Below, piece by piece: positions 33,933-62,156 of a DNA stretch of 64,000 nt. Below the pieces are notes generated by a model. The model did not search any database. It was not told the origin of the DNA and was given only the letters and a program-made list of their open reading frames with translations. The stretch spans positions 4,464,001 to 4,528,000 of the forward strand of contig NW_024704746.1 in the NCBI RefSeq assembly GCF_018977255.1, read 5' to 3'. The translations under genes were made by a program, and so were the position numbers. Every line of letters begins with the position of its first letter. The stretch's first letter is position 1. Source of the DNA: Callorhinchus milii (Eukaryota).

Positions 33933-34077
33933 ATGGATCCGTCAGTGATCAGGAAATCACAGCTGATCCCGTTCCGCGGAGTACCGCTCCCGCATTATTT
34001 TCTGGAAAACATGGAAAAGGTTGGAGAGTTCGAGGCGGATAAGACTGATGTTCTGATCGCAACCTACCCAAAGGCAG
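33933..34077 (+). CDS. SULT1-family cytosolic sulfotransferase copy A, coding exon 1 of 7
   Basis: MDPSVIRKSQLIPFRGVPL...DVLIATYPKAG (5'-PSB loop). Exons of 145+126+98+127+95+181+134 = 906 nt give an intact 301-aa ORF with typical SULT1 exon sizes. Confidence 0.92.
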
Positions 34078-34899
34078 GTCAGTACATTTCTCTTTTACTC
34101 TCTGGTTCCCTGTCTATCACAGCGTGGACGTTAAAGTTCTCCGCACCGCTGACGGGAAAGAGAACGTGAAAGAAAGACTCCTAAATGGCCTCGCTCTAAT
34201 TTTAAGATGATGGCGCCTTGTTCTGAATTTCCCCAAACAGAGAAATTGGGTTCTCTGTATCTACCCTATCGAATCCCTTTATTATTTTAAACACCTCAGT
34301 CAGATAGATCACCACTCAACCTTACACACTCAAGGGAATACAGACCCAAGTTTATGCAACATATAAATAAAATAAACAACAAATAAATAAAATAATAATA
34401 AGTTTACTTAGTCCACGATTGTTTGTGGGACACTGCTGTGCGCAATTGGCTGCCGTATTTCTCCCACAAAATACGCAGTCAATTCACTTTACAATATATT
34501 CTGTAAGATTCTTCAGACATGACCTACACTTCACAAATCCATGCTGACTCCCTTTGCTTAGCTCATACTTGTCTAAGTGCTCAGTCACTCTGTCCCCGAT
34601 GAGAGATTCCAGTAACTTCCCCACGACTGAAGTTAAGCTGACAGGTCTGCAGTTACCTGGTTTCTCTCTCCCCTTCTTAAATAATGGGATGACATTTGCA
34701 ATTTTCTAATCCAAGGGCACCATTCCCAAATATATAGAGCTTTGGAAAATGATGATTAGCACATCTACAATTTTCTCTCCAATTTATTCTAATACCCTGG
34801 GGGTGGAATCCATCCGGTTCTGCAGATTTATCTATCTTTAGTCACATTCTTTTCTCCATTACCATTTTTAATTTATATTAAATTAATTTAGTACTTCTC

Positions 34900-35336
34900 T
34901 TTGGCAAATGGCTCTGTTTCATTAGGTTTCTGGGGGAAAACCGCCAGATTACCTTAGCTAATGATTGACTTGACAATCCCAATGTCAGTGAAACAGTTGT
35001 AGAATCATTTATACACACAGTACATAAGGATTTATTAACAGAACCAAAAAAACAAGCTCTGGTCAGCAGCCCAGGCCTTGAGGTCACCAGGTCCTGAGAT
35101 GAAAATGTTAACTTCTATTGCTTGTTAAATCATAAACCTTTTCTATCTCATCTCGAGTGCCTGTTAAATCATTCAGGTGAGTCCAGATACCCTGCAGATC
35201 ACTTGGAACACACCTCGTGATTTAGACCACAACTGGTGTCACCTACCAATTTGTTAACTCTGTACTTCCCTTATCCCTGCTTGCCCTCAAAATGTATGTG
35301 TATGTAAAATGCAGGTAAATTCCTATATTCTTAACA
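34900..35336 (-). mobile_element. Possible solo LTR in SULT intron 1 (related sequence at ~58080-58450)
   Basis: The minus strand begins TGTTAAGAA and contains AATAAA; it follows a CR1 fragment. No coding region is present. Confidence 0.35.
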
Positions 35337-35616
35337 GTTTACCTAGCAGTAAGTAGGAACCTGATTGTTAGTCAATTGCTGTATGGGGTTAATAATCCCT
35401 TCAAAAAAATAATAATAAATAAAATAATTTGGTCACTCAATCCACGCCTGTTTGTGTGACGTCGCAGTATGCAATTGGGTTTCCGGGTTTCACCCACAAA
35501 ATACACAGTCACAACACTTTATAGTATTTCTTGTGAAGCGATTTCTTGCAACCATTGTTGGCATTTGTATTAATAATAACAATTATGTTAATGTTACTGT
35601 CTCTGGCTGGGATCAG

Positions 35617-35742
35617 GCACGACCTGGATGCAGGAGATAGTGGACTGTGTGCTCCATGGAGGGGATGTGAGGCAGTGTGAACAAAGCCCCATCCATTACC
35701 GCAGCCCCTTCCTCGAGGCCTTCTTCCCGGAAATGCCCAGTG
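35617..35742 (+). CDS. SULT1 copy A coding exon 2
   Basis: GTTWMQEIVDCVLHGGDVRQCEQSPIHYRSPFLEAFFPEMPS, bounded by ag/gt. Confidence 0.92.
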
Positions 35743-36086
35743 GTCAGTCTGCCCTGCCCTCTCCTAGTCTGTTTCTCTCTGTCTCACTCTCTCGCTGCCT
35801 ATCCCTCTCTGTCTCTCACTCTTGGGCTCTGTGTCACTCCTCACGTTCTGTCTCACTCACTCTCTCTGGCTGTTTCTCTCTCTGTGTCTCCCTCTCCCTG
35901 TCTCACTCTCTCTCTGTCTCAGTCACCCTCTTTGTCTCATTCACTCTCTTGCTATTTCACTCACTCTCAATCACTCTCTCTGTGTCTCACTCTCTCTCTG
36001 ACTCACTCTCTGATTCACTGACTCTCTTGTGCTCTCTGTCTGTCTCTCGCTCTCTCTGTCTCACTCACTCTCTCCGTCTCTCTCAG

Positions 36087-36184
36087 GGCTAGAATTACTT
36101 GCTGAGATTCCATCTCCAAAACCGATTAAGACGCATCTCCCGTTCCAGCTCATTCCCACATCCTTTCTTCAAAAACAGTGCAAG
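36087..36184 (+). CDS. SULT1 copy A coding exon 3
   Basis: GLELLAEIPSPKPIKTHLPFQLIPTSFLQKQCK, with the catalytic His in KTHLP. Confidence 0.92.
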
Positions 36185-36410
36185 GTAAACATCTCCCCTT
36201 GCTCCCTCCCTACTCCTCCACCTCTCACACTCTGTCTCTCCTTTATCACACTCCATCTCTCTCACACTCTCCTCTCTGTCTGACTCTCCTGTCTCACACA
36301 GACTCTTTCTCCTTTCTCACACTCCGTCTCCCACACTCTCCTCTGTCACACACAGACCTTCTGTGTCTCTCTCTCACTCTCTGTCTCACACACCCTCTCT
36401 CTCTCACTAG

Positions 36411-36537
36411 ATCATTTATTGCGCTCGAAACGCCAAGGATAATGTGGTTTCGTTTTTCCACTTCGACCGAATGAACATGTTGCAGCCGGATCCCGGGACT
36501 TGGGAGGAATTTTTACAGAAATTCCTGACGGGAAATG
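36411..36537 (+). CDS. SULT1 copy A coding exon 4
   Basis: [42 protein letters not shown] (3'-PB motif RNAKD..VS). Confidence 0.92.
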
Positions 36538-59574: not shown

Positions 59575-59701
59575 ATCATTTATTGCGCTCGAAACGCCAA
59601 GGATAATGTGGTTTCGTCTTTCCACTTCGACCGAATGAGCAAGTTGAAGCCGGATCCCGGGCCCTGGGAGGAATTTTTACAGAAATTCCTGACGGGAAAT
59701 G
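59575..59701 (+). CDS. SULT1 copy B coding exon 4
   Basis: [42 protein letters not shown]. Confidence 0.88.
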
Positions 59702-59820
59702 GTCAGTTCTTCCCACGTGGGTGGTGGTGAGGTACTCTCGTTCCATCCCTCTCTCCATCTCTCCGTCTCTCTCTATCTCTTTCCATTTCTCCATCTCTTT
59801 CCATCTCTCCCCATCCCCGT

Positions 59821-60142
59821 GGAGTCCTGTAGCTCAGTGGTTAGAGTACTCGTTTTGCAAGCGAGAGACCTGAGTTCAATTCCAGGCAGAGGGCGAAACC
59901 TTGGGCAAGTTTCCTTACTCCACACGCCTAATAATAATCCCTCCAAAAAACAAAAACAATAATTAAATTGGTCATTTTCAATCTACGACTGTTTGTGGGA
60001 CATTGCTGTGCGCAATTGGCTGCCGCGTTCGCCCACAAATATACAGTCAATTCACTTTACAGTGTGTTCTGTGAAACGCTTTGGGACGTCCTCCCGACGT
60101 GAAAAGCGCTATATCAAAATGCAAGGATTATTATTATTATTA
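59821..60142 (+). mobile_element. tRNA-derived SINE, full length, present only in SULT copy B
   Basis: Intact A and B boxes, core and (ATT)n tail; absent from the paralogous intron at 36538-36658. Confidence 0.9.
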
Positions 60143-60348
60143 TCTCTCCATCTCTTTCCATCTCACCATCTCTTTCCATCTCTCCATGTCTTTCCATCTC
60201 TTTCCATCCCTCCATCTCTTTCCATCCCTCCATCTCTTTCCATCCCTCCATCTCTTTCCATCCCTCCATCTCTTTCCATCCCTCCATCTCTTTGTGTCTC
60301 TCTATACACGTAACAACTTTTTAAACACGTGTTTCCTCCCCTGTTCAG

Positions 60349-60443
60349 TCATGTATGGGTTGTGGCATGATCACGTGAAGGGATGGTGGGAGCAGAGAGG
60401 AAACTTTCCCATTCTCTACATGTTCTATGAAGACATGAAGGAG
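60349..60443 (+). CDS. SULT1 copy B coding exon 5
   Basis: [32 protein letters not shown]. Confidence 0.88.
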
Positions 60444-61266
60444 GTAAAGACTGGGGTCGGAGGTCACAATGTTTCAGATCCTCTAACACACACACACTGC
60501 CGGTCCACACTCCCAGGTCAGGGTTAGATCCAACCACTGACCATACATTGTCCCAAACGCAGCCGAAGCCCTCGTCCATGTGTTTATCACTTCCCGCCTC
60601 AACTGTTCAAATGCATTCCTCTGTAATCTCCCCCCAAAATCCAGTAAGTCCAAAACTCCACCACCCGCAAACTCACCCCCATTAAACTCCATACCTCCAT
60701 CACACCAGCCTCACCAGGATCCACTGGCTGCCTATCACTGAACGATTTCAAAATCCTCACACTCATTTTCAAATCCCTTCATTCCTCTGCTCAGCTGGCT
60801 CCGGCCTGGACATCCCTCATGCCCCGAGTTCCACCATCAGTGGCCGCACTTACAGCCACTGCATCCGGAAACTCTGGAACACTCCCTCTGTTGGTCTATT
60901 GCTCCCCCTTGTCCCCTCCTTCCCTATCTTCAGATCACACCTGAAGACCTTCCTCTTCAACTATCTTTACAGTCACCTCTCCATGGTTTGGTGACGTGCT
61001 CCACCACTGTCAAGCTCACTGGGACACAACCCTGCGTGAGGGACGCTATATAAATGCAAGTTATTGCTCTCTCTACATGTCTGTCCACATCCCAGGGGAA
61101 GAGAAGGCAGTTTCTCTCTCCCAGTGTTTTGGCCAATAATCCTGCAGATTGAGGACTCTGGCTCCCTGGTTACTGCTAATTTGGTGATTAGCTACCAAAT
61201 TGGCCTGTGTTGTTGCTCACTAAATCTAAATCGGCCAGCTTATTTCACTGCCCAGTTTCGCAACAA

Positions 61267-61447
61267 GACCCGAGGCGAGAAATCAAGCGGGTGGCTGAGT
61301 TTCTGGGCAAGGAGCTAGGCAGCAAGGAACTGGACACCATCGTTGCTCACACCAGCTTCAACGCCATGAAGCTCAACCCAATGACCAACCATTCAAATGT
61401 TCCACTTGATGTGTTGGACCAAAGAATATCTTCATTCATGAGGAAAG
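61267..61447 (+). CDS. SULT1 copy B coding exon 6 (canonical AG acceptor mutated to AA)
   Basis: DPRREIKRVAEF...MTNHSNVPLDVLDQRISSFMRK, preceded by caacaa where copy A has caacag. Confidence 0.7.
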
Positions 61448-62019
61448 GTGAGAGGATGCGTCTTAGATCATGATGGTACACAAGGAATCAGTGTCAGCCT
61501 ATGGCTCAGTCAACTCACTTGCTCTCTCAGTCTGTTGCTCAGTCCCTCACTCTCTCTCTTGTCTCAGTCTTTCAGACTTTGGCTCAGTCGCTTGTGCTCT
61601 CGCTTCTGGTTGTGAGTTTGAGTCCCTTGTCAGGATTTTGAATCACAGTCTAAGCTGACACTGCAGTGCTGTGGGAGAAAGCTCCACATTCTTGGAGAGA
61701 CCTTAAACTCCACTCCCTGTCTGTGCCCTGTTCAGCACAGACATAAAAGATCTCCCATGGTGCTGCCAAGGGGAAAAGAGAGGAGAGTTTCTCTCTCTTC
61801 TCTCTCTCTCTCCGGTGTCCTGGATGACAATTGCCTAAATGGGACATTGCAGTGTGAAAACTGTCTGCTTTGTTTCGCCCACAAAATACACAGACACTAC
61901 ACTTTACAGCATATCCTGTGAAGCGCTTTGAAATGTCTTAGACGACGTGATTAGGTGCTGTGTCAAATGCAACGATTATAAATTGATTATTATTGTGACA
62001 TTGAGCTCTGTCCTCACAG

Positions 62020-62156
62020 GCATTGTGGGAGACTGGAAAACACACTTCACTGTGGCTCAGAACCAGATGTTTGAGGAGGATTACTGCCGCAGGATGGTGG
62101 GGAGCACATTGCGTTTCCGGACAGAATTGAGTCCAGGAGACAATTGTCTGCAGTGA
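62020..62156 (+). CDS. SULT1 copy B terminal exon
   Basis: [48 protein letters not shown]. Confidence 0.85.

What the first reader, a model, noticed from the sequence alone, without database searches (positions are those of the whole stretch)
33933..62156. Tandem SULT1 paralogs differ mainly in the three substrate-binding loops
Seen: exon 3 is identical and some introns nearly so, yet replacements cluster at residues 84-90 (FFPEMPS vs SYPGIRT), 138-153 ([16 protein letters not shown] vs [16 protein letters not shown]) and the cap before RKG (NYSTIPLDVLDQRTSP vs NHSNVPLDVLDQRISS). The PAPS motifs TYPKAGTTW, KTH, RNAKD and RKGxxG(N/D)WK are retained. Established: these loops shape the acceptor pocket of cytosolic SULTs. 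Inference: diversifying selection for a new substrate, or conversion excluded from specificity loops. This is the strongest biological signal in the window.
Basis: partly seen in the sequence, partly recalled or inferred. Interest (0 to 1): 0.7.

Follow-up and report, generated by a model that had tools for sequence, protein, structure and literature searches.

The report
Chimaera SULT1 twins with different pockets
Two neighbouring, 92%-identical sulfate-transfer enzyme genes of a chimaera differ mostly in the loops lining the substrate pocket, likely because selection keeps those loops apart while gene conversion evens out the rest - a known pattern, here in a new gene pair whose second copy has a broken splice site in this assembly.

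Summary
Observation confirmed. Two 7-exon SULT1 genes (Callorhinchus milii by protein hits) differ at 24 of 301 residues; 14 fall in the three published SULT1A1 loops (42 codons; p about 1e-4 or lower in four tests), and 5 of 16 published contact positions differ (human 86, 89, 146, 149, 240). All PAPS and catalytic residues are kept. Two tracts (433 and 1017 columns) are about 1% diverged against about 7.5% elsewhere and end at the loop edges, as gene conversion would leave them. Positive selection is not shown: loop pN/pS is 0.76. That is not a fixed defect: 3 of 4 DNA runs show the AG acceptor on a contig with B-type exon letters (fourth unphased), one RNA run has B's cap exon spliced to exon 7, and non-loop sites show purifying selection. 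B also has residues absent from 113 homologs (S138, K148, M167, H239), so decay stays a real rival. Best reading: a diverged substrate pocket held against conversion, as in primate SULT1A1/1A3 and red/green opsins. New member of a known kind; modest interest.

The parts
33933..38434 (+). SULT1 copy A, coding exons 33933-34077, 35617-35742, 36087-36184, 36411-36537, 36659-36753, 37576-37756, 38301-38434; 301 aa; all splice sites GT..AG
   Evidence: matches NP_001279410.1/AFK11279.1 except at 284 and 300
56638..62156 (+). SULT1 copy B, coding exons 56638-56782, 58665-58790, 59240-59337, 59575-59701, 60349-60443, 61267-61447, 62020-62156; 302 aa if spliced like A
   Evidence: database models XP_007901202 (385 aa) and A0A4W3GIR7 (299 aa)
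61265..61266 (+). Intron-5 acceptor of copy B reads AA in this assembly; nearest AGs (-28, -11, +1, +8, +13) are out of frame, first in-frame AG is +21
   Evidence: G at 61266 in contigs of runs X1-X6 that cover it
35711..35740 (+). Loop-1 divergence island, copy A (codons 80-90): 10 of 30 bases differ from B (6 replacement, 4 silent)
   Evidence: vs intron 6, p=5e-4
58759..58788 (+). Loop-1 divergence island, copy B
36454..36500 (+). F138 and loop 2, copy A (differences at 138, 145, 146, 148, 153)
59618..59664 (+). S138 and loop 2, copy B
   Evidence: B-type contig with 0 other letters in run X1
37699..37741 (+). Cap (loop 3), copy A (differences at 239, 241, 242, 251, 253)
61390..61432 (+). 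Cap (loop 3), copy B; same letters in runs X2, X3, X6
36021..36453 (+). Homogenised tract 1 (pairs with 59174-59617): 4 differences in 433 columns; ends at codon 138
36663..37679 (+). Homogenised tract 2 (pairs with 60353-61370): 15 differences in 1017 columns; ends at codon 232
35567..35710 (+). 144-base identical run (pairs with 58615-58758) ending at codon 80, just before loop 1
59764..60286 (.). 523-base insertion in intron 4 of B holding a multi-copy repeat; possible conversion barrier
30384..31411 (+). Upstream block 98.6% identical to 46304-47329; only these two full-length matches among 40 scored candidates in the genome; probably part of the duplicated unit

Best explanation
Two tandem SULT1 genes keep all PAPS-binding and catalytic residues and differ mostly in the three acceptor-pocket loops, so they likely sulfate different small molecules, and selection likely removes conversion events that would overwrite those loops while the DNA between them is homogenised. 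Shown: gene structures, clustering, low-divergence tracts ending at loop edges, purifying selection outside the loops, a spliced B-type cap exon in one RNA run. Inferred: conversion as the cause of the tracts; selection as the reason they stop; different substrates. By position, B's changes at human-equivalent 86, 89, 146, 149 and 240 would reshape the pocket mouth and pocket 2, and loss of two near-invariant aromatics (Y139, Y240 equivalents) is predicted to give a looser, lower-affinity pocket. The AA acceptor is likely a null allele of B carried by the assembled haplotype, not the state of the species.
For: Clustering tests. A residue i = human SULT1A1 i+1 without gaps; 5 of 16 published contact/specificity positions differ, p=0.005, or 0.014 within diverged segments (positions from PMC10706399 passages, which reports that E146A, D86A and E89I shift SULT1A3 towards 1A1). 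Internal control: exon 1 is also unhomogenised (pS 0.145) but has pN 0.027 against 0.141 in loops (p=0.004), so escape from conversion alone does not explain the loop replacements. Loop-1 island 10/30 exceeds the most diverged intron, 48/517 (p=5e-4): the divergence peak described in PMC3924837. Cap-half contigs of X2 and X3 match reference A (16 of 16 differences) or B (0 differences) exactly, whereas the tract just upstream gives one contig mixing A and B letters. Both copies depart from shark residues in the loops: A at 87, 146, 242 (B's residue in 8, 6, 8 of 9 sharks and rays), B at 145, 148 (A's residue in 9, 8 of 9). B-type exon 6 joined to exon 7 in X6, contig depth 606 beside 895 for A-type. 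Non-loop 11 N: 10 S, p=0.008 against neutral.
Against: Loop pN/pS 0.76, none of the three loops above 1. Loop pN is not above intron 6 divergence (p=0.15). The introns beside the loops (2, 4, 6) also carry indels of 17-523 bases while introns 3 and 5 have none above 10, so physical barriers could give the same tract map; with six introns the map alone is not significant, and the loops' own differences help define the high segments. 10 of 41 exon differences are CpG transitions, which inflates pS. B carries S138, K148, M167 and H239, each in 0 of 113 homologs; human Y240C alone aggregates (PMC3206062). B's acceptor is dead in this assembly and both database models route round it. B-type RNA was seen in 1 of 3 RNA runs laid (X6; X5 gave A-type pieces, X7 gave nothing), and only for the exon 6-7 joint. 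Contigs collapse variants, so the mixed contig is weak evidence of shared polymorphism.
Confidence: 0.55

Rival explanations
1. Copy B is a young, still transcribed but decaying duplicate: its pocket changes are tolerated damage, and the AA acceptor is an early step of pseudogenisation.
For: AA acceptor with only out-of-frame AGs nearby; four residues absent from 113 homologs, two at positions that are aromatic in 113 of 113 and 111 of 113; longer B branch, 0.062 vs 0.028; loop N:S fits neutrality; TATATAA upstream of A reads TGCATAA in B; intron-5 contigs at depth 240-490 in X6 against 6-30 for other introns, not phased to a copy.
Against: Damage should not spare 259 non-loop codons (pN/pS 0.31, p=0.008) and all catalytic residues; AG acceptor with B-type codon 201 in X1, X2, X3; A also departs from shark residues in the loops; no stop or frameshift in B's exons.
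Confidence: 0.25
2. No selection on the difference: large indels and a repeat insertion block conversion near the exon ends, and the loops there simply tolerate change; both enzymes do the same job (dosage).
For: Indels in introns 1, 2, 4, 6 but not 3, 5; PMC3924837 names insertions and large indels as what ends conversion; loops somewhat more variable family-wide (heterozygosity 0.50 vs 0.42).
Against: Variability-weighted null gives about 4 loop differences, never 14 in 100,000 draws; exon 3, the 5' part of exon 2 and nearly all of exon 5 lie beside the same indel-rich introns yet are identical; loop 1 is far above intron divergence.
Confidence: 0.15
3. The loop-1 island was imported from a third, more distant SULT1 gene.
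For: 33% local divergence with 4 silent changes in 11 codons.
Against: No third close copy in the genome: outside this locus the best matches are 37-53% identical, and the one match covering this region is 48%; 2 of the 4 silent changes are CpG transitions. A lost or unassembled donor cannot be excluded.
Confidence: 0.05

Closest known systems
Hominoid SULT1A1 / SULT1A3 (PMC555591; PMC10706399)
   Same: Young SULT1 duplicates, about 92-93% identical, with replacements clustered at the acceptor pocket; shared variable positions 85, 86, 89, 146; gene-wide KA/KS below 1 there too (0.23).
   Different: Independent duplication in a chimaera (A and B are sisters beside shark and ray genes); no acidic D86/E146 pair, so no ground to predict a dopamine enzyme; the cap and the Y139/Y240 equivalents also change; PMC555591 has 0 occurrences of 'gene conversion'; no function known here.
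Duplicates held apart against gene conversion: human red/green opsins, RHCE/RHD (PMC3924837), Leptodactylus ATP1A1 (bioRxiv 10.1101/2020.08.04.234435)
   Same: Tandem copies, homogenised tracts, divergence peaks at functionally important codons.
   Different: There the pattern is trans-species and the functional difference was measured; here one species, no assay, and four of six introns are not homogenised.
Shark and ray 'SULT1B1-like/1A1-like' proteins (P0014-P0020, P0024, P0025)
   Same: Nearest relatives, 56-63% identical; same motifs.
   Different: They keep N145, Y239 and an aromatic at 138 in 9 of 9; no copy-pair like this was looked for in their genomes.

Membership tests
Cytosolic sulfotransferase, SULT1 family | Sulfotransfer_1 domain over nearly its whole length | tested here: met
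   PF00685 305 bits (A, P0007) and 284 bits (B model, P0009), profile 1-253 of 255
Cytosolic sulfotransferase, SULT1 family | PAPS-binding and catalytic residues (K47, K105, H107, R129, S137, R256-K257-G258, G261; roles recalled) | tested here: met
   Identical in A and B; 101-113 of 113 homologs share each
Cytosolic sulfotransferase, SULT1 family | At least 45% identity to SULT1 members (threshold recalled) | tested here: met
   50-57% to 18 bony-vertebrate proteins named SULT1; best solved structures are SULT1C2, 1A1, 1A3 at E 1e-107 to 1e-105
SULT1A subfamily (as the database name 'sulfotransferase 1A1-like' suggests) | At least 60% identity to subfamily members (threshold recalled) and orthology | tested here: inconclusive
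   Below 60% to all 18 bony-vertebrate SULT1s in the tree; groups with shark and ray genes. No mammalian SULT1A sequence was in that tree.
Cytosolic sulfotransferase, SULT1 family | KxxxTVxxxE dimer motif (recalled) | tested here: inconclusive
   K264, T268, V269 present; last residue Q273 in both copies (E in 77, Q in 8 of 113 homologs)
Cytosolic sulfotransferase, SULT1 family | PAPS-dependent sulfation of an acceptor | not testable with these tools
   Needs an assay
Duplicates diverged under selection against gene conversion | Tracts far more alike than the rest of the duplicate | tested here: met
   1.3% vs 7.5% segments; intron heterogeneity p=1.7e-10
Duplicates diverged under selection against gene conversion | Divergence peak at functional codons above local neutral divergence | tested here: inconclusive
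   Met for loop 1 (p=5e-4); loops 2 and 3 are at about the level of their flanking introns
Duplicates diverged under selection against gene conversion | Fixed differences at target sites, shared variants in the flanks | tested here: inconclusive
   Cap differences unchanged in X2, X3, X6; mixed A/B contig upstream in X1-X3; contigs only, few samples, DNA runs from one study
Duplicates diverged under selection against gene conversion | Same A/B types kept across species; measured functional difference | not testable with these tools
   No other chimaera protein among the best 120 of 1417 hits
Positively selected duplicate (dN/dS above 1) | pN/pS above 1 in the loops | tested here: not met
   0.76 overall; 0.92, 0.84, 0.66 per loop; pairwise counts only, low power
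Pseudogene (copy B) | Fixed disabling lesion and neutral evolution | tested here: not met
   AA acceptor in this assembly, but AG with B-type letters in 3 of 4 DNA runs; non-loop purifying signal p=0.008; spliced B-type RNA contig

The most novel reading that the evidence does not exclude
Copy B is an active SULT1 that has dropped two near-invariant aromatics (human Y139, Y240 equivalents) to take a substrate class its twin cannot, and it segregates in the species as working, splice-dead and possibly multi-copy alleles, with intron-5 retention as an extra switch: a natural loop-swap experiment on SULT specificity in a slowly evolving vertebrate.
Probability: 0.2. Interest if true: 0.55.

Novelty: new member of a known kind. 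Interest (0 to 1): 0.35.

Why it matters
If true, it is an independent replay, in a cartilaginous fish, of the SULT1A1/1A3 route to new acceptor specificity at the same positions (86, 89, 146), with only about two dozen differences to test, and a compact example of selection holding pocket loops against gene conversion. It also corrects annotation: the 385-aa and 299-aa database models of copy B are likely work-arounds of a dead acceptor in the assembled haplotype. It does not open a new mechanism.

Tried and rejected
Structure prediction of the A-type protein P0002 with a 17-row alignment gave mean pLDDT 54, loops 2 and 3 under 50; not used, no fold search run. Formal polarisation of the changes by lineage was not obtained; direction is described only from column counts. 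No RNA holder is on record; X5-X7 are guesses, X5 and X6 treated as RNA because they show GT..AG joints at the exon borders; X7 laid nothing, no evidence either way. Contig depth cannot rank expression. A third close paralog was sought and not found. Literature on this locus: searches (1 unrelated review each; 5 papers, 3 listed, none on SULT conversion by title or abstract start; 0 papers on chimaera bile-alcohol sulfation); subscription papers are not searched, so absence from print is not shown. Earlier scan notes: none. Rows dropped: 4 of 117 homologs outside 280-350 aa or equal to none of the filter's ids; tree used 27 homologs plus A and B. RING, B-box and PRY patterns (recalled) found nothing in the window. 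Rejected: 'B is a long-dead pseudogene' (purifying signal, spliced RNA); 'AA is a plain sequencing error' is less likely because an older and a newer database model both avoid the site, but it was not excluded with reads of the assembled individual.
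Full report
What is there. The interval holds two seven-exon genes on the + strand, copy A (33933-38434, 301 aa) and copy B (56638-62156, 302 aa if spliced like A), with the same exon lengths except the last. Protein hits name the organism as Callorhinchus milii; A equals NP_001279410.1/AFK11279.1 but for two residues, and B corresponds to XP_007901202 (385 aa) and A0A4W3GIR7 (299 aa). Both score far above the Pfam cut-off for Sulfotransfer_1, keep every catalytic and PAPS-binding residue checked, and are sisters in a tree, next to shark and ray proteins (56-63% identity). 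No third close copy was found in the genome.

Checking the observation. The coding sequences differ at 41 bases and 24 residues, plus a stop moved by one codon. Exon 3 is identical; introns 3 and 5 differ at 4 of 226 and 13 of 822 aligned bases, the others at 4-9%. A aligns to human SULT1A1 without gaps at offset +1. Using loop limits from PMC8222352 (passages: L1 83-91, L2 141-158, L3 241-255), 14 of 24 differences fall in 42 of 301 codons: p=9e-8; 0 of 100,000 draws weighted by variability in 113 homologs; 2 of 300 circular shifts; p=9.5e-5 for random segments; p=3.8e-5 inside diverged segments only. Five of 16 positions named as contacts or specificity residues in PMC10706399 (passages) differ: 86, 89, 146, 149, 240 (p=0.005). 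The pocket-residue lists in the supplements of both papers were not read and could shift this count.

Conversion. A two-state segmentation gives two tracts at about 1% (36021-36453, 4 of 433; 36663-37679, 15 of 1017) in a background of 7.5%; the first ends at codon 138, the second runs from codon 168 to 232, and a 144-base identical run ends at codon 80. All 42 loop codons are in high segments against 147 of 259 others, but this is partly circular and, with three loops, not significant alone. Introns 1, 2, 4 and 6 carry indels of 17 to 523 bases, introns 3 and 5 none above 10, so barriers are a real alternative (PMC3924837 passages); against that, exons 3 and 5 and the 5' part of exon 2 border the same introns and are homogenised. 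In other samples the cap half resolves into one contig identical to B and one with all 16 A letters (X2, X3), while the tract upstream gives one contig with two A letters and two or three B letters (X1-X3). Contigs collapse variants, so this is suggestive only.

Selection. pN/pS is 0.46 overall, 0.76 in loops (14 N, 5 S), 0.31 outside (11 N, 10 S). Outside the loops replacements are depleted (p=0.008), so B has not long been dead; inside they fit neutrality (p=0.38), so positive selection is not shown. Exon 1 is a useful control: unhomogenised, yet pN 0.027 against 0.141 in loops (p=0.004). Loop 1 is a true peak, 10 of 30 bases against 48 of 517 in the most diverged intron (p=5e-4); loop pN overall is not above intron 6 (p=0.15). 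Ten of 41 exon differences are CpG transitions. Column counts show both copies leaving the shark residue in the loops (A at 87, 146, 242; B at 145, 148 and at the edges 138, 239), and B holds four residues found in 0 of 113 homologs: S138, K148, M167, H239. In human SULT1A1, Y240 lines pocket 2; Y240C arose in a variant with higher activity and lower affinity but aggregates alone (PMC3206062 passages), so H239 could mean either a changed pocket or damage.

B's intron-5 acceptor reads AA (61265-61266); the five nearest AGs are out of frame and the first in-frame one removes seven residues. Both database models avoid the site. But every laid run covering it shows G (X1-X6). In X1, X2 and X3 the contig has only two other letters, 61218 and 61266, so the G sits 12 bases from B's letter at 61278 on one path; X4 has a third, unlisted difference and cannot be phased. 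The simple reading is an intact B in those samples (an A copy converted at codon 201 is the alternative). In X6 a contig identical to B's cap half continues into exon 7 (depth 606 beside 895 for A-type), so B is transcribed and spliced at intron 6 there; its intron-5 splicing cannot be phased. X5 gave A-type pieces only and X7 nothing.

Mechanism and comparison. The best reading (0.55) is two enzymes with different acceptor pockets, kept apart by selection against conversion; decay of B (0.25), neutral barriers (0.15) and a lost donor (0.05) remain. It works like hominoid SULT1A1/1A3, where replacements cluster at the pocket and sites 85, 86, 89 were flagged (PMC555591 passages), and like opsins and frog ATP1A1 (abstract only) for conversion. 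It is a SULT1 member; subfamily 1A is not established. Searches found nothing on this locus in the open library. Verdict: real, statistically sound, a new instance of a known pattern, function untested; interest 0.35.

Noticed in passing
window 60444-61266 (intron 5) in run X6: Intron-5 contigs reach depth 240-490 against 6-30 for other introns, suggesting strong intron-5 retention in that RNA sample; read-through stops after 27 codons. The retained path has the AG acceptor, mixes A and B letters and has a 17-base deletion at 60457 also seen in X1 and X5. Not phased to a copy.
   Followed up: partly
window 61341-61510 in run X2: B-type contig depth 16 against A-type 5.8 (X3: 6.5 vs 4.8): possible extra copies of B; contig depth is no copy number.
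   Followed up: no
protein P0002 (V9KX03): Mosaic: B residues at 3, 21, 25 (exon 1) with A loops. Either a converted or recombinant allele or an assembly chimaera.
   Followed up: partly
window 39982-40545, minus strand: SPRY-domain exon (PF00622, E 1e-10) between the two SULT copies; no RING or B-box pattern found in the window.
   Followed up: partly
window 30384-31411 and 46304-47329: A 1-kb block 98.6% identical, two full-length copies in the genome, beside a block only 89% identical (29630-30385 vs 44959-45702): another likely conversion tract; holds an exon-like AG...GT stretch near 30760-30860.
   Followed up: partly
window 33785 and 56468: TATATAA about 150 bases upstream of A's start reads TGCATAA in B; possible promoter difference.
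   Followed up: no
codon 273 of both copies: Dimer motif ends in Q, not E (Q in 8 of 113 homologs); both proteins also run 7-8 residues past the usual FRTEL end.
   Followed up: no
window 38379 (codon 284 of A): Window A has Ala; three database A-type proteins have Val like B: allele or assembly error, not a fixed paralog difference.
   Followed up: yes
window 15357-16142 (-) and 21919-22440 (+): Reverse-transcriptase fragments (PF00078), ordinary retroelement remnants.
   Followed up: no
G000:C5:27104000-27346000, C3:36995000-37051000, C10:11577000-11590500: Other multi-copy clusters of intron-containing Sulfotransfer_1 genes in this genome; the same loop and conversion test could be run on them.
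   Followed up: no
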